Shown here: piece by piece, positions 1-32,806 of the stretch | Numbering within the stretch: the stretch's first letter is position 1 | Layout of the letters: each line of letters begins with the position of its first letter | Virus genome (UHGV): UHGV-0159523 | Reading direction: 5' to 3' (one strand) | DNA length: 32,971 nt | Origin: a virus | Notes under the pieces: generated by a model | Databases searched by the model: none | What the model was told of the DNA's origin: nothing | Seen by the model: the letters and a program-made list of their open reading frames with translations, nothing else | Position numbers and translations under genes: made by a program

Positions 1-1527
<1,527 letters not shown>

Positions 1528-25600: not shown

Positions 25601-25864
25601 TTACGCAACTGAACCGCTAACTTTTGAATAGCACTCTGGTAATCCATCATTTGGATTTGGATAAATATCAGGACGCAGCTCATGGGGGGTTACGGACCAG
25701 TTCCCCAGCTCACAAAGTTGTAAAACTCGTTCCGACGGGACTTGATTGTTAATTACCCAATTAGCGACAGATTGAGTAGATTTAAAACCAAAGCGACGAG
25801 CTACTTCAGATAAAGACTTTCCCGCAGCCTTTACTGCTTTCTCGGTGTAGTTTTGAGATGACAT
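25601..25864 (-). CDS. Cro-like HTH repressor, 87 aa
   Basis: HTH KSLSEVARRFGFKSTQSVANWV; SD AGGAG; divergent from CI across a short operator region. Confidence 0.65.
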   Translation of the reverse strand: MSSQNYTEKAVKAAGKSLSEVARRFGFKSTQSVANWVINNQVPSERVLQLCELGNWSVTPHELRPDIYPNPNDGLPECYSKVSGSVA

Positions 25865-25896
25865 ATCTTTCTCCTCTGAAATCCAGAGGGGATAAT

Positions 25897-25934
25897 GCTA
25901 CTTAAAGTAGCGAATTGCAACTACTTAAAATAGA
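25897..25934. promoter_or_regulatory. OR-like operators: two copies of a 15-bp palindrome (gctacttaaagtagc and actacttaaaataga)
   Basis: First copy is a perfect odd-length palindrome; second is a near copy 23 bp away centre to centre; both lie in the 71-bp gap between divergent cro-like and cI starts. Confidence 0.55.
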
Positions 25935-25935
25935 A

Positions 25936-26676
25936 ATGACGAGCGTATGTGATGTGAGTAATCTTCTACCTATGGTAGAAGAACAGAAGTATCCAGATTT
26001 CGCCAAGAGACTAAACGAGTTAATGACAAACAAGGGAATTTCTGTCACCCAACTCAAAAGTCTTGTTGGCGTTACATATGAAATGGCGCGGCGATACACA
26101 ATCGGCGCAGCGAAGCCTCGTGCCTCTGTCATGAATAAACTTGCGTTGGCTCTGGGGGTATCGGCTTCATATTTAGAATATGGTGTTGGCGAGAGAGAAG
26201 GATGTAAGGAAATGGCAAGCATCCCCAATCCAACAAAACCCGACGTATACAGGATAGAAGTTTTAGATCTTAGCGTTAGCGCAGGACCTGGAACCTATAT
26301 GCTTTCAGACTATGTTGATGTGCTCTACGCCATTGAGTTCACAACAGAACATGCCCGTTCTCTTTTCGGTAACCGTTCTCAGGATGATATTAAGGTTATG
26401 ACTGTAAATGGCGATAGTATGTCCCCTACTCTCGTTTCCGGAGATCGACTGTTTGTCGACATTTCTGTTCGTCACTTCCAGACTGATGGAATTTACTCTT
26501 TCGTTTACGGTAAGACTTTTCATGTTAAACGTCTTCAAATGCAAGGTGACAAGCTAGCCGTTCTTTCGGATAACCCTGCCTATGAGAAATGGTACATCGA
26601 TGAAAAATCGCAGGATCAGCTTTATGTAATGGGCAAGGCGTTGATTCATGAGTCAATAAAATACAATCGGTTATAG
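25936..26676 (+). CDS. CI-like prophage repressor with C-terminal S24 (LexA-like) peptidase domain
   Basis: N-terminal HTH (FAKRLNELMTNKGISVTQLKSLVGVTYEMARRY); C-terminal VNGDSMSPTL and FHVKRL Ser/Lys dyad; ATG at 25936 may be leaderless, TTG at 25915 is the track start. Confidence 0.85.
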   Translation: MTSVCDVSNLLPMVEEQKYPDFAKRLNELMTNKGISVTQLKSLVGVTYEMARRYTIGAAKPRASVMNKLALALGVSASYLEYGVGEREGCKEMASIPNPTKPDVYRIEVLDLSVSAGPGTYMLSDYVDVLYAIEFTTEHARSLFGNRSQDDIKVMTVNGDSMSPTLVSGDRLFVDISVRHFQTDGIYSFVYGKTFHVKRLQMQGDKLAVLSDNPAYEKWYIDEKSQDQLYVMGKALIHESIKYNRL

Positions 26677-26691
26677 TTCTAAGGGCATATA

Positions 26692-27039
26692 ATGGCTAGT
26701 GAGCAGGGATTCGAAAAGATTAACATGGATATGTTGGTCTCTTATTTCTCAGAAAAGAATATATATCTAAAATGTACACTATGTGGACACGACAGATTGA
26801 CTGTGCCTCAAGTCAGCGCGAATGTGGGCATGCCATGTACTATGAAACTTGGTAGTTATGTGAATGTTTTTACTGAAAAAAGCATTTATTCTGATACTGC
26901 TAACCAGTATTACTTTTCACTAATATGCAACAATTGTGGAAATGAAATTCATATAAATGCGTTTTCAGTTTTGAACTGGGTAAATGAAAAGTTCCCAGCA
27001 AAAACGGAAGATGAAAAAAATGCCGACGCCGCAAAATAA
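26692..27039 (+). CDS. Small protein with two CxxC pairs (zinc-ribbon-like), 115 aa
   Basis: CTLCGH and CNNCGN about 50 residues apart; AT-rich; immediately downstream of cI on the same strand (rexA position). Confidence 0.5.
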   Translation: MASEQGFEKINMDMLVSYFSEKNIYLKCTLCGHDRLTVPQVSANVGMPCTMKLGSYVNVFTEKSIYSDTANQYYFSLICNNCGNEIHINAFSVLNWVNEKFPAKTEDEKNADAAK

Positions 27040-27391
27040 TGTAGTACCATTTAATAGTGAACTTCCCACAATTAGAAGACACGGTGGAGATGGCGGAGGT
27101 GATGACATGCTTGAAGCCCGAGTCGCTAAGTTAGAAGCGAATGTTGAGGATATAAAAACAAATCTCGCAGAGATGAGAGCTGACATTCGTGATTTGCGAA
27201 ACGCTCTCTCCGACACCCGACGCGATGTCGCTGTTATCCTTCAAAAACAAATAGATATAGATGAAAAGTTGTCAAAAAAACCTAGCCTAAGTGAAGTCAA
27301 CAGCGCTATTTCATCAGCCGTAAATAAACAGATCGCATGGACTGTTGCAACAGGCTTGGCGATTTTAGGTCTCGCCAAATTTATGTTTTGA
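27011..27391 (+). CDS. Coiled-coil protein with single C-terminal TM anchor (XhlA-like architecture); start 27011 or 27020
   Basis: Heptad-like charged region EARVAKLEANVEDIKTNLAEMRADIRDLRNAL followed by IAWTVATGLAILGLAKFMF at the extreme C-terminus; overlaps upstream gene end. Confidence 0.5.
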   Translation: MKKMPTPQNNVVPFNSELPTIRRHGGDGGGDDMLEARVAKLEANVEDIKTNLAEMRADIRDLRNALSDTRRDVAVILQKQIDIDEKLSKKPSLSEVNSAISSAVNKQIAWTVATGLAILGLAKFMF

Positions 27392-27696
27392 TAAGTTTTT
27401 GACTATGACCTGCCCTAGTTTTCTTACTATCGAGGCTAAATCACACAATCCATTGAGTAGTAAATTCCCTACCGTTTTACACTTAGCCTCCAAAAACTCA
27501 ACAATACTCTCATGATTGACTTCTCCCCACTTGATGATTAACTAGATCACATACTGATCTCAGCCACAATGAAACAATCCATCACGTTCTACAACTCAGC
27601 TAACTTCACAATATAATTTTTTGATCATAGCCCCAAAATATTTTACCTGTAAATTCAATGAATTAATTTCAAAATGCGTTTTTATGCCCTTAACTT

Positions 27697-27733
27697 CTAC
27701 TTTTTGTAGTTGATTTTTGCAACTTTAAGTAGC
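27697..27733. promoter_or_regulatory. OL-like operators: two copies related to the OR palindrome (ctactttttgtag, gcaactttaagtagc)
   Basis: Second site matches OR 15-mer at 13/15; first shares CTACTT...GTAG arms; 23-bp spacing as at OR; additional half-site aagtagc at 27774-27780. Confidence 0.45.
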
Positions 27734-27861
27734 AATATCATTTTACCGACAACGAACAGGCAGGACGCCCACGAAGTAGCCGCCTGGGGCATATGAAGTC
27801 CAGGATGATTCGTTGAGTCATGTTGTGCCACTAGGCACTCATGTTAAAGCAGGTGTATGAA

Positions 27862-31326: not shown

Positions 31327-31676
31327 TGGAGCCATACAGCCTCACACTCGATGAGGCCTGTCATTTTCTCAAGATATCCAGACCGACTGCCATTAACTGG
31401 ATACGCACAGGGCGTCTTCAGGCAACACGCAAAGATCCCACTAAGAATAAATCTCCTTACCTCACAACACGACAAGCCTGCATTGCGGCTCTTCAGTCTC
31501 CGCTGCATACTGTCCAGGTGAGCGCGGGTGATGGCATAACAGAGGAAAGAAAATGTCACTCTTCCGCAGAGGTGAAATATGGTACGCCAGTTTCACATTG
31601 CCGAACGGTAAAAGATTTAAACAGTCTCTTGGAACAAAGGACAAAAGGCAGGCGACAGAACTCCATGACAAGCTAA
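31326..31676 (+). CDS. xis: Excisionase (AlpA/MerR-type HTH), 116 aa
   Basis: SD AGAGGTG; N-terminal [35 protein letters not shown]-binding motif; immediately upstream of and overlapping int. Confidence 0.7.
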
Positions 31677-32716
31677 AGGCTGAAGCATGGCGGGTCAGCA
31701 AACTTGGTGAAATACCTGATATAACGTTCGAGGAAGCGTGTGTCAGGTGGCTTGAAGAGAAAGCACATAAAAAATCACTGGACGATGACAAAAGCCGGAT
31801 CGGATTCTGGCTTCAACATTTCGCAGGAATGCAACTAAGAGACATTACTGAATCAAAAATTTATTCAGCAATGCAGAAAATGACGAACCGGCGTCATGAG
31901 GAAAACTGGAAACTCAGGGCAGAAGCATGCAGAAAAAAAGGGAAACCTGTTCCAGAATACACGCCAAAACCAGCGTCCGTTGCAACGAAGGCTACGCATC
32001 TTTCATTTATAAAGGCCCTACTAAGAGCCGCAGAGCGTGAATGGAAAATGCTGGATAAGGCACCAATTATTAAAGTGCCCCAATCAAAGAATAAACGGAT
32101 CCGCTGGCTGGAGCCCCATGAAGCACAAAGGCTGATTGATGAATGTCCGGAACCATTAAAGTCTGTTGTTGAATTTGCACTGGCAACAGGCCTAAGACGC
32201 TCGAACATCATCAACCTTGAATGGCAACAAATAGATATGCAGCGCCGGGTGGCATGGATAAACCCGGAAGAGAGTAAATCAAACCGCGCAATTGGCGTTG
32301 CGCTGAATGATACTGCATGTCGCGTATTGAAAAAACAAATCGGGAATCATCACCGTTGGGTATTTGTGTACAAGGAAAGCTGTACCAAACCAGACGGAAC
32401 GAAAGCGCCAACAGTCAGGAAGATGCGGTATGACGCAAACACAGCCTGGAAAGCGGCGCTGAGACGGGCTGGTATTGATGATTTTAGATTTCACGACTTG
32501 AGACACACCTGGGCAAGTTGGCTGGTTCAAGCCGGAGTCCCGTTGTCAGTGTTACAGGAAATGGGAGGCTGGGAGTCTATCGAAATGGTTCGTCGATATG
32601 CTCACCTTGCACCTAATCACCTTACCGAACACGCACGGCAAATAGACTCGATCCTAAACCCATCGGTCCCAAATTTGTCCCAGTCAAAAAATAAGGAAGG
32701 TACTAATGATGTGTAA
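31553..32716 (+). CDS. int: Tyrosine integrase (phage-type site-specific recombinase), 387 aa
   Basis: N-terminal [21 protein letters not shown] typical of enterobacterial phage integrases; catalytic HDLRHTW box and RRYAHL tyrosine motif; ends 15 bp from the tRNA 3' end. Confidence 0.9.
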
Positions 32717-32730
32717 CTTATTGATTTAAA

Positions 32731-32806
32731 TGGTGCCGATAATAGGAGTCGAACCTACGACCTTCGCATTACGAATGCGCTGCTCTACCAACTGAGCTAT
32801 ATCGGC
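32731..32806 (-). tRNA. thrW: tRNA-Thr (anticodon CGU), thrW-type; prophage attachment site at its 3' end
   Basis: Reverse complement folds as a 76-nt tRNA ending in CCA with anticodon loop TT-CGT-AA; sequence matches E. coli tRNA-Thr(CGU) as I recall it. Confidence 0.9.

What the first reader, a model, noticed from the sequence alone, without database searches (positions are those of the whole stretch)
25865..25935. Compact OR region with two 15-bp palindromic operators and a probable leaderless cI
Seen in sequence: only 71 bp separate the divergent cro-like and cI start codons. They contain a perfect palindrome gctacttaaagtagc and a near copy 23 bp away. The cI ATG at 25936 has essentially no ribosome-binding site, consistent with a leaderless maintenance transcript as in lambda. 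The operator sequence defines the immunity specificity.
Basis: partly seen in the sequence, partly recalled or inferred. Interest (0 to 1): 0.4.

Follow-up and report, generated by a model that had tools for sequence, protein, structure and literature searches.

The report
HK022-like prophage immunity switch operators
This is the ordinary on/off control region of an E. coli prophage. The two repeated palindromes are real repressor-binding sites, but there are five of them, and the repressor gene most likely starts 36 bases further right, inside a third site.

Summary
The two palindromes are real: OR1 at 25897-25911 and OR2 at 25920-25934, 23 bp apart. They are part of a set of five related CTAC-N5-GTAG sites. 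The third (OR3, 25965-79; 21-bp perfect palindrome 25962-82) is centred on the A of ATG 25972. A second pair (OL2 27696-710, OL1 27719-33, also 23 bp apart) lies over a PL-like promoter.

The motif occurs nowhere else in the 33-kb window. Its positions relative to ATG 25972 are kept in relatives whose CI is 70-100% identical, and in two sequenced phages with the same DNA-binding domain.

The cI start is most likely ATG 25972, as annotated in 5 of 6 genomes, not 25936. Homology to phage HK022 CI begins exactly there. HK022-type and a Citrobacter-type relative also place the cI ATG at the centre of their OR3.

A -10-like TAATCT sits 17 bp downstream of it and 7 nt before ATG 25972.

So a leaderless cI mRNA is plausible, but at 25972. 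No transcript or binding data exist.

This is a new immunity specificity of a known (HK022-like lambdoid) design.

The parts
25601..25864 (-). cro-like gene (87 aa, YdaS/HTH family), first gene of the PR operon. It is followed by a CII-like YmfL/CP76 gene (PGAP start 25572).
   Evidence: Pfam PF15943 4.6e-11; PHROG 35 transcriptional repressor; strong SD GAGGAG, -9.1 kcal/mol; PGAP annotation.
25892..25920 (-). Predicted PR. The -35 TTGCAA is at 25920->25915, the spacer is 17 bp, and the -10 CATTAT is at 25897->25892. The predicted transcript start is about 25885.
   Evidence: Best minus-strand hexamer pair in the region, 8/12. The TTG of the -35 and the A2/A5/T6 of the -10 are kept in all relatives. 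PL has the same layout. This is a prediction only.
25897..25911 (.). OR1: GCTACTTAAAGTAGC. It fills the PR spacer and abuts the -10.
   Evidence: Its centre is at -68/-67 from ATG 25972 in 19 distinct relatives. The outer CTAC/GTAG is kept while the central bases vary.
25920..25934 (.). OR2: ACTACTTAAAATAGA, 23 bp from OR1. It lies between the two -35 elements.
   Evidence: Its centre is at -45 in the 18 of 19 distinct relatives where the scan scored it; in the nineteenth (L054) a more degenerate copy lies in the same alignment columns. Its right half AAAATAG is invariant.
25936..25964 (+). Predicted maintenance promoter (PRM). The -35 ATGACG is at 25936-41, the spacer is 17 bp, and the -10 TAATCT is at 25959-64. 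The predicted start is 25971-25972.
   Evidence: Footprint: ATGAC is invariant, 25941-57 is variable, GTAA (25958-61) is invariant, and the -10 keeps T1 A2 T6 (TAATCT/TAAGCT/TAACCT, and TAGACT in the Providencia phage). The -35 is ATGACA (5/6) in two phages. A -10-like hexamer occupies the same slot in HK022 (TATAGT), Enterobacter (TATAAT) and Citrobacter-type relatives (CTGACA-17-GATATT). A 'PM-10' label lies within 21 nt of the HK022 cI ATG (PMC8053113 supplement). No transcript start has been mapped.
25962..25982 (.). OR3: 15-mer TCTACCTATGGTAGA (25965-79) within the perfect 21-bp palindrome TCTTCTACC-TAT-GGTAGAAGA. It is centred on the A of ATG 25972.
   Evidence: One of 3 perfect palindromes with arms of at least 9 bp and a loop of at most 3 nt, against 0.52 expected. 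The non-coding left arm CTTCTACCT is invariant in relatives. HK022/HK75 oR3 (TGAACTTATGGTTCA) is also centred on the cI ATG in the GenBank records.
25972..26676 (+). cI repressor, 234 aa. It has an HTH_3 N-terminal domain (recognition helix TYEMARRY) and a Peptidase_S24 C-terminal domain with Ala104-Gly105, Ser149 and Lys186.
   Evidence: Pfam. 42% identity to HK022 CI, E 1e-66, with the alignment starting at M1. Invariant SAGPG, GDSM and KRL. PGAP start in 5 of 6 genomes.
27696..27710 (.). OL2: TCTACTTTTTGTAGT. It abuts the -35 of PL.
   Evidence: It is kept 23 bp from OL1 in relatives.
27719..27733 (.). OL1: GCAACTTTAAGTAGC. It sits in the PL spacer.
   Evidence: 1 mismatch. It is conserved in relatives although the DNA and genes between cI and OL differ.
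27710..27738 (+). Predicted PL: -35 TTGATT (27710-15), 17-bp spacer, -10 CAATAT (27733-38). It drives the early-left operon towards the integrase.
   Evidence: TTGATT is invariant in the four aligned sequences, and the -10 keeps CAnnAT in them. It mirrors the PR layout. This is a prediction only.

Best explanation
The region is the OR half of a lambdoid, HK022-like lysis/lysogeny switch in an E. coli prophage integrated next to tRNA-Thr.

The CI repressor is a LexA-like protein with an HTH domain and a self-cleaving S24 domain. It recognises 15-bp sites with the core CTAC-N5-GTAG.

Inferred mechanism:
1. CI dimers bind cooperatively to OR1 (in the PR spacer) and OR2 (23 bp away, overlapping the -35 of PR). 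This shuts off cro and the early-right operon.
2. An identical pair, OL1/OL2, shuts off PL.
3. OR2 lies just upstream of the -35 (ATGACG) of a weak maintenance promoter. The -10 of that promoter (TAATCT) ends 7 nt before ATG 25972.
4. The cI mRNA therefore starts at, or one base before, its own start codon. It is leaderless and has no Shine-Dalgarno sequence.
5. OR3 is centred on that start point. CI at high concentration, or Cro, bound there would block cI transcription.
6. SOS-induced self-cleavage at Ala104-Gly105 would lift repression.

Shown here: the sites, their statistics, their conservation and co-variation with the CI DNA-binding domain, and the homology-based start codon.

Inferred: binding, cooperativity, promoter positions, the leaderless transcript and autoregulation.
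For: - Motif statistics: 5 matches against 0.35 expected; CTAC-N5-GTAG occurs 3 times against 0.17 expected, and only at OR1, OR3 and OL2.
- Site positions: in 19 distinct IMG/VR relatives (CI 70-100% identical) the centres stay at -68/-67, -45 and 0 from the ATG. An OL site lies at a variable distance (+1463 to +2661) where the contig reaches that far, and its partner 23 bp upstream is seen in about half of them at the scan threshold. There are no other hits in about 5.7 kb.
- Phylogenetic footprint of the operators, -35 and -10, with a variable spacer.
- The recognition helix TYEM(A/V)RRY travels with CTAC sites, including in phage Phi06_2987 S and Providencia phage PSTRCR_117lys, whose C-terminal domains differ. 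TPKA(I/V)SKW travels with TGAAC sites (HK022, Enterobacter). TTPGVWKW travels with TTAAC sites (Citrobacter-type).
- Start codon: the HK022 CI alignment starts at M(25972). OR3 is centred on the cI ATG in the HK022/HK75 GenBank features. The homologous ATG is the only possible start in Citrobacter-type and Enterobacter relatives.
- No candidate start has an SD.
- A -10-like hexamer lies 6-7 nt upstream of the ATG in four operator-specificity groups, including a perfect TATAAT. A 'PM-10' label lies next to the HK022 cI ATG (PMC8053113 supplement).
- HK022 CI binds adjacent operators cooperatively and loops OL to OR (PMC8053113).
Against: - No binding, transcript or protein data exist for this element.
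- The proposed PRM is a weak consensus match (7/12), and the tool's own promoter scan did not list it.
- A better -10-like hexamer (TAAAAT) lies inside OR2.
- The frame from ATG 25936 stays open, at a constant 36 nt, in all 16 aligned relatives and both phages. The A of that ATG is invariant although T would fit a -35 better.
- One phage record annotates the upstream ATG as the start.
- OR2 lies at -45 from the proposed start, not at -42 as in lambda, so activation is a guess.
- Only two OL sites were found, so OR3 has no obvious looping partner.
Confidence: 0.65

Rival explanations
1. There are only two operators. cI starts at ATG 25936 (246 aa) on a leaderless transcript made from a promoter whose -10 lies in OR2.
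For: - ATG 25936 is in frame and invariant, and the 36-nt frame stays open in all relatives.
- It has no SD.
- TTAAAG-18-TAAAAT scores 8/12.
- The GenBank record of Providencia phage PSTRCR_117lys starts the gene at the equivalent ATG.
Against: - TAAAAT ends 4 nt before the A, so the predicted start is about 25938, which would cut the ATG.
- The 12-codon extension has no homolog in HK022, Enterobacter or Citrobacter CI, and in the last two no upstream start is possible.
- Variable columns are spread evenly over codon positions (5/11, 5/11, 7/11), against 4/7, 0/7, 4/7 in the true coding part.
- This promoter would be shut by the same OR1/OR2 occupancy that represses PR, leaving no maintenance expression.
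- The model ignores the third site, which is statistically supported.
Confidence: 0.07
2. A leadered maintenance transcript. The promoter is TTAAAG/TAAAAT within OR1/OR2, with a start near 25938 and a 34-nt leader without SD. Translation starts at ATG 25972. The 21-bp palindrome acts as an RNA hairpin over the AUG.
For: - It is the best plus-strand consensus match.
- The A at 25930 that makes TAAAAT is invariant in OR2, while OR1 varies G/A at the same place.
- The hairpin is stable: -11.6 kcal/mol, z = -3.8.
Against: - The conserved blocks ATGAC (25936-40) and GTAA (25958-61) outside any operator would be unexplained.
- A hairpin burying an SD-less AUG would give very poor translation.
- The promoter would be fully repressed whenever PR is repressed.
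- HK022-type, Enterobacter and Citrobacter-type relatives have their best -10 hexamer 6-7 nt from the ATG.
Confidence: 0.12
3. Two starts. Leaderless PRM transcripts use ATG 25972. Leadered establishment or read-through transcripts have AUG 25972 locked in the hairpin, so they start at the A/U-rich, unstructured ATG 25936 and make a CI that is 12 residues longer.
For: - The upstream ATG is invariant and in frame, and the frame is open in every relative examined with CTAC-type operators.
- The hairpin covers only AUG 25972.
- A CII-like activator gene is present, so a leadered establishment transcript is expected.
Against: - The in-frame relation follows from promoter geometry (6+17+6+7 = 36).
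- Only about 6 codons are free to vary, so staying open is roughly a 1-in-10 chance event over the lineages seen (my estimate).
- The variable codons are not conserved at the protein level.
- The Citrobacter-type relatives have a stop codon two codons upstream of their ATG.
Confidence: 0.08

Closest known systems
Phage HK022 / HK75 immunity region (cI, cro, oR1-3, oL1-3; GenBank X16093, HM173637)
   Same: - CI is homologous over its full length (42% identity, E 1e-66), with the same N-terminus MV(E/Q).
- cro and cI are divergent.
- The operators are 15-bp palindromes of the form N5-N5-N5.
- One operator sits in the PR spacer.
- OR3 is centred on the A of the cI ATG, with a -10-like hexamer 7 nt upstream.
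- HK022 CI binds cooperatively and loops OL to OR (PMC8053113).
   Different: - The operator sequence differs (CTAC-N5-GTAG against TGAAC-N5-GTTCA), and so does the recognition helix, so the two are predicted to be heteroimmune.
- The operator slots are shifted. HK022 has oR1 downstream of the PR -10 and oR2 in the spacer, 33 bp from oR3. Here the sites are in the spacer and upstream of the -35, 68 and 45 bp from OR3.
- In HK022 the candidate PRM -35 lies inside oR2; here it lies outside OR2.
- Only two OL sites were found here, against three in HK022.
- OL is about 1.8 kb away here, against about 0.7 kb.
- No distal OFR-like site was found.
Phage lambda OR/OL switch with leaderless cI mRNA from PRM
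   Same: - PR and PRM are divergent and back to back, with OR2 between the two -35 elements.
- OR1-OR2 spacing is 23 bp here, against 24 in lambda.
- The predicted start-to-start distance is about 87 bp, against 82 in lambda (from my own knowledge).
- cI has no SD, and the -10 is placed so that the transcript starts at the AUG.
- The repressor is of the LexA-like S24 type.
   Different: - OR3 sits on the transcript start and start codon rather than over the PRM -35/-10.
- OR2 is at -45, not -42.
- Operators are 15 bp, not 17 bp.
- Cro is of the YdaS family.
- CII is of the CP76/YmfL family.
- Nothing has been tested experimentally.
Escherichia phage Phi06_2987 S (KM389288, unverified record) and Providencia phage PSTRCR_117lys (MW358929)
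   Same: - The operator type, the 23-bp OR1-OR2 spacing and the OR2/-35/-10/OR3/ATG layout are the same (ATGACA-17-TAATCT or TAGACT-7-ATG).
- The CI recognition helix is the same (GV(T/S)YEMARRYTLG).
- They probably belong to the same immunity group.
   Different: - CI is only 41-45% identical overall, because the C-terminal domains differ.
- The DNA is about 67% identical.
- The control regions are not described in those records. One record has no annotation, and the other starts cI at the upstream ATG.
Escherichia phage HK639 cI (closest CI among sequenced phages, 58% identity)
   Same: The gene order is the same (cII, cro, cI, cargo genes, PL and a structured PL leader), and it has three OR palindromes.
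   Different: - The operators are ATAACC-N2-4-GGTTAT.
- OR3 ends 11 nt upstream of the ATG rather than being centred on it.
- The N-terminus is shorter.

Membership tests
Lambdoid CI / LexA-like self-cleaving repressor | N-terminal HTH DNA-binding domain plus C-terminal Peptidase_S24 domain | tested here: met
   PF01381 1.9e-5 and PF00717 7.8e-17; PHROG 4 6.4e-50.
Lambdoid CI / LexA-like self-cleaving repressor | Ala-Gly cleavage site and Ser/Lys catalytic dyad | tested here: met
   Invariant S103-A104-G105-P106-G107, S149 (GDSM) and K186 (KRL) in the alignment with HK022, HK639 and other CIs. Assignment of roles is by homology, from established knowledge of LexA and lambda CI.
Lambdoid CI / LexA-like self-cleaving repressor | RecA-stimulated self-cleavage and prophage induction | not testable with these tools
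   This needs an experiment.
Lambdoid OR/OL operator system | Divergent cro-like and cI genes with several related palindromic sites overlapping the lytic promoter | tested here: met
Lambdoid OR/OL operator system | A second set of the same sites over a PL promoter on the far side of cI | tested here: met
   OL2/OL1 at 27696-27733, 23 bp apart. The OL region is conserved in relatives with different intervening genes.
Lambdoid OR/OL operator system | Three sites at each of OR and OL | tested here: not met
   Three sites at OR, but only two found at OL with up to 3 mismatches. A very degenerate third site cannot be excluded.
Lambdoid OR/OL operator system | Sites bound by CI (and Cro) | not testable with these tools
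   Indirect support only: the operator type co-varies with the CI recognition helix.
HK022-type immunity region | CI homologous to HK022 CI from the first residue | tested here: met
   BLASTP 42% identity, E 1e-66, M1 aligned to M1.
HK022-type immunity region | OR3 palindrome centred on the cI start codon | tested here: met
   The centre of the 25962-82 palindrome is the A of ATG 25972. HK022/HK75 oR3 features overlap the cI start in the same register.
HK022-type immunity region | HK022 operator sequence (same immunity) | tested here: not met
   CTAC-N5-GTAG here against TGAAC-N5-GTTCA in HK022. The recognition helices differ. It works like HK022 but is not homoimmune.
HK022-type immunity region | An operator between the PR -10 and the cro ribosome-binding site (oR1 position) | tested here: not met
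   That slot (25873-89) holds an unrelated inverted repeat, CCTCTG-N5-CAGAGG. The CTAC sites are in the spacer and upstream of the -35.
Leaderless cI mRNA (lambda PRM type) | No Shine-Dalgarno sequence upstream of the start codon | tested here: met
   Anti-SD duplex -2.2 kcal/mol for ATG 25972 and +1.7 for 25936, against -9.1 for cro.
Leaderless cI mRNA (lambda PRM type) | A -10 element placed so that transcription starts at the A of the AUG | tested here: inconclusive
   TAATCT ends 7 nt before ATG 25972. T1/A2/T6 and the 17-bp distance to ATGAC are conserved. The match is only 3/6, and a rival -10 exists in OR2.
Leaderless cI mRNA (lambda PRM type) | Mapped 5' end at the AUG | not testable with these tools
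   No transcript data are available.

The most novel reading that the evidence does not exclude
The palindrome centred on the start codon may do two jobs. As DNA it is OR3. As RNA it is a -11.6 kcal/mol hairpin that exists only in leadered transcripts and buries AUG 25972. If so, leaderless PRM transcripts make the 234-aa CI. Establishment or read-through transcripts would instead initiate at the invariant, in-frame, A/U-rich ATG 25936 and make a CI that is 12 residues longer. The phage would then make promoter-specific repressor isoforms.
Probability: 0.08. Interest if true: 0.55.

Novelty: new member of a known kind. Interest (0 to 1): 0.28.

Why it matters
- It fixes the gene start and the control-site map of an immunity region carried by 206 of 5,426 complete E. 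coli genomes. Current annotations give three different cI starts for this region.
- It defines an immunity group (CTAC-N5-GTAG sites with the recognition helix TYEMxRRY) that also includes a Providencia phage. This can be used to predict superinfection immunity.
- At least three operator specificities keep the cI start codon at the exact centre of OR3. This makes the family a convenient natural series for studying how operator specificity changes while the switch layout, and a probably leaderless mRNA, are preserved.
- None of this is surprising for lambdoid phages.

Tried and rejected
- Megablast of the region against 50,697 phage records found nothing. Only the 'distant' and protein modes found relatives.
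- The Rfam scan of the whole window found only a tRNA and an isrC fragment, and nothing in the control regions.
- The tool's promoter scan listed no site in 25865-25975 at its threshold, so I enumerated weaker hexamer pairs myself.
- A literature search for the operator strings returned only irrelevant hits.
- Searches on HK022 with 'OR3' or 'leaderless' gave no primary description of its PRM. Carlson & Little 1993 (PMC206910) is not held. The experimental status of HK022 oR3 and PM therefore rests on GenBank features and on a label in the PMC8053113 supplement.
- The genome-contig scan gave only 2 loci.
- I considered TTG 25915 and GTG 25954 as starts. Neither has an SD. TTG 25915 is a TAG in some relatives.
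- I considered a cryptic operator at the HK022-equivalent -33 slot (25932-46). It shows no CTAC/GTAG similarity in the window.
- I looked for a second copy of the PL-leader element and found none.
- PADLOC and Pfam gave nothing convincing for the two small genes between cI and OL.

Full report
**What is at the coordinates**

- A cro-like gene (YdaS/HTH family, 87 aa) runs leftwards from ATG 25864. It has a strong Shine-Dalgarno sequence.
- A CI-type repressor gene (HTH_3 plus Peptidase_S24) runs rightwards.
The near copy ACTACTTAAAATAGA is at 25920-25934, exactly 23 bp away.
- ATG 25936 exists, is in frame with the repressor, and has no ribosome-binding site. The literal observation is correct.

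**Is it more than chance?**

A single perfect 7+1+7 palindrome is not unusual in this 33-kb window: 7 are seen and 4.3 are expected. The signal is the repetition.

- The 15-mer has 5 matches with up to 3 mismatches, against 0.35 expected. None of 100 shuffles reaches 5.
- The stripped core CTAC-N5-GTAG occurs exactly three times, against 0.17 expected.
- All copies fall in two intergenic regions.
  - At OR the cores start at 25898, 25921 and 25966.
  - A second pair starts at 27697 and 27720, again 23 bp apart. It lies upstream of the rightward early operon that ends with the integrase next to tRNA-Thr.

**The third OR site and the start codon**

- TCTACCTATGGTAGA (25965-79) lies inside a perfect 21-bp palindrome (25962-82). 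Its centre is the A of ATG 25972.
- The window is 100% identical to prophages in several E. coli genomes. Related copies (at least 80% identity) occur in 206 of 5,426 complete genomes.
- PGAP starts the repressor at the equivalent of 25972 (234 aa) in five of six genomes examined, and at TTG 25915 in the sixth.
- The repressor is 42% identical over its full length to phage HK022 CI. When 19 upstream codons are offered, the BLASTP alignment still begins at M(25972) aligned to M1 of HK022 CI.
- In the GenBank records of HK022 and HK75, oR3 (TGAACTTATGGTTCA) overlaps the cI start in the same register, with the A of the ATG at the centre.
- The same design recurs with other operator sequences.
  - An Enterobacter prophage has TGAACCTATGGTACA.
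  - A Citrobacter prophage and IMG/VR relatives have TTAAC-TAATG-GTTAA.
- In the Citrobacter type, a TAA lies two codons upstream of this ATG. In the Enterobacter locus, no start codon lies between the upstream stop and this ATG. In both, the operator-centred ATG is the only possible start.

I conclude that cI most likely starts at 25972 and that the cro-cI gap is 107 bp.

**Comparative evidence that the palindromes are CI operators**

- An IMG/VR scan gave 80 loci. Nineteen distinct relatives have CI 70-100% identical.
  - In these, the site centres stay at -68/-67, -45 and 0 relative to the ATG.
  - An OL site lies at distances from +1463 to +2661 where the contig reaches that far, with its partner 23 bp upstream detected in about half of them. 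No other hits occur in about 5.7 kb per locus.
  - The outer CTAC/GTAG is kept, while the central five bases of OR1 vary: TTAAA, TTTAA, CTAAA, TTCTA, TATTG and CCAAA.
- The genes between cI and OL differ among relatives: two small ORFs here, and a ParA-family gene in APEC O18. The OL sites and the TTGATT -35 are nevertheless conserved where the flanks are not.
- The operator type travels with the recognition helix of the CI N-terminal domain.
  - TYEM(A/V)RRY goes with CTAC sites. This includes Escherichia phage Phi06_2987 S and Providencia phage PSTRCR_117lys, whose CIs are only 41-45% identical overall.
  - TPKA(I/V)SKW goes with TGAAC sites.
  - TTPGVWKW goes with TTAAC sites.

**Promoters (predicted only)**

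| Promoter | Strand | -35 | Spacer | -10 | Predicted start |
|---|---|---|---|---|---|
| PR | - | TTGCAA (25920->25915) | 17 bp, containing OR1 | CATTAT (25897->25892) | about 25885 |
| PL | + | TTGATT (27710-15) | 17 bp, containing OL1 | CAATAT (27733-38) | not estimated |
| PRM (proposed) | + | ATGACG (25936-41) | 17 bp | TAATCT (25959-64) | 25971-25972 |

PR and PL share one layout. For cI, the alignment of 16 relatives gives a clear footprint:

- AAAATAGAAATGAC (25927-40) is invariant.
- 25941-57 is highly variable.
- GTAA (25958-61) is invariant.
- 25962 is variable.
- CTTCTACCTATG (25963-74) is invariant.

This fits a -35 ATGACG, a 17-bp spacer and a -10 TAATCT that ends 7 nt before the A of ATG 25972.

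- The -10 keeps T1, A2 and T6 in every relative: TAATCT, TAAGCT, TAACCT, and TAGACT in the Providencia phage. The -35 is ATGACA (5/6) in the two phages.
- The same slot holds TATAGT in HK022, a perfect TATAAT in the Enterobacter locus, and CTGACA-17-GATATT in the Citrobacter type.
- The supplement of PMC8053113 labels a 'PM-10' within the 21 nt upstream of the HK022 cI ATG.
- No candidate start has a Shine-Dalgarno sequence.

A leaderless or one-nucleotide-leader cI mRNA is therefore the best reading, at 25972.

**Why not ATG 25936?**

- The only -10-like hexamer upstream of it (TAAAAT, 25926-31, inside OR2) ends 4 nt before it. That predicts a start near 25938.
- That promoter would be occluded by the same OR1/OR2 occupancy that represses PR.
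- Variable columns in 25939-71 are spread evenly over codon positions (5/11, 5/11, 7/11). In the adjacent true coding sequence the second codon position never varies.

Against my reading, the 36-nt frame from ATG 25936 stays open in all relatives and in both phages, and its A is invariant. The in-frame relation follows from promoter geometry (6+17+6+7 = 36), and only about six codons are free to vary, so this is weak evidence. It keeps alive a two-start model. In that model, leadered transcripts have AUG 25972 buried in a -11.6 kcal/mol hairpin and use the upstream ATG.

**How it most likely works (inferred)**

1. CI dimers bind OR1+OR2 and OL1+OL2 cooperatively and repress PR and PL.
2. OR2, at -45 from the PRM start and abutting its -35, may stimulate the weak PRM as in lambda.
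3. OR3, centred on +1, gives negative autoregulation or is the preferred Cro site.
4. OL-OR looping is likely, as shown for HK022 CI (PMC8053113).
5. Ala104-Gly105, Ser149 and Lys186 predict SOS-inducible self-cleavage.

**Comparison and novelty**

- The closest described system is the HK022/HK75 immunity region. It shares a homologous CI and an OR3 centred on the cI ATG.
- The differences are the operator sequence, the shifted positions of the two lytic-promoter operators, a -35 outside OR2, and two rather than three OL sites.
- No phage in the INPHARED copy is more than 85% identical in DNA. The operator strings do not appear in the searchable literature.
- Two sequenced phages carry the same DNA-binding domain and operators without any description of them.

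This is a new member (a new immunity specificity) of a known kind. It is useful mainly for annotation and immunity-group assignment, so I score its interest as modest.

Noticed in passing
window 27752-27815 (PL leader, + strand): This untranslated stretch downstream of PL is strongly conserved. It folds into an outer stem (ACGAAC/GATTCGT) plus a hairpin, CCTGG-GGCATATGAAGT-CCAGG. Relatives show compensatory changes in the hairpin (CCGGT..ACCGG, CCCCA..TGGGG) and in the outer stem (A-U to G-C): 4 of 15 pairs covary. In relative L063 the same slot holds a sequence resembling the HK639 putL-like antiterminator RNA. There is no Rfam hit and no second copy in the window. It is possibly a cis-acting antitermination or nut-type element.
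   Followed up: partly
window 25870-25892 (between the PR -10 and the cro start): The inverted repeat TCTCCTCTG-N5-CAGAGGGGA pairs the cro Shine-Dalgarno sequence (GAGGAG) with an upstream CCUCU. All relatives keep it, with changing loops and G:C to A:T swaps at the stem end (about -8 to -10 kcal/mol). With the predicted PR start (about 25885) the 5' arm would not be transcribed. It may therefore be a DNA site at PR +1, which is the slot of oR1 in HK022, or the true PR start may lie further upstream.
   Followed up: partly
window 26692-27391, compared with L002/L003/L004: The cargo between cI and OL is variable. This window has two small overlapping ORFs (115 and 135 aa; PHROGs of unknown function; weak CpXC and coiled-coil hits). 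APEC O18 and strain 789 carry a ParA-family gene there, and GPEC1240 has other hypothetical genes. This is the position of rexAB-like lysogen-expressed genes.
   Followed up: partly
window 25800-25806 (inside cro): There is an isolated perfect left half-site, GCTACTT, 97 bp from OR1 (direct repeat D2). It has no matching right half and is probably chance. HK022 has a distal CI site about 300 bp downstream of OR (PMC8053113), but nothing comparable was found here.
   Followed up: no
window 32731-32806 and 31553-32716; window 1-59: tRNA-Thr(CGT) lies next to a 387-aa ORF at 31553-32716 that I take, from its position only, to be the integrase; it was not checked against any family library. This marks the right prophage end and the probable attachment site. 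A 59-nt 5' fragment of the isrC Hfq-binding sRNA family lies at the left edge of the window.
   Followed up: no
L005 (CX12), L096 (Providencia phage PSTRCR_117lys), compared with L001-L004 and L006: Public annotations disagree on this cI start. PGAP uses the 25972 equivalent in five genomes and the 25915 equivalent in one. The Providencia phage record uses the 25936 equivalent.
   Followed up: yes
L006 (E. coli O157:H7 146N4) 345-1558: In this relative an IS3-family element has inserted into the cro-like gene and left cI and OR intact. This would be a prophage locked in the repressed state.
   Followed up: no
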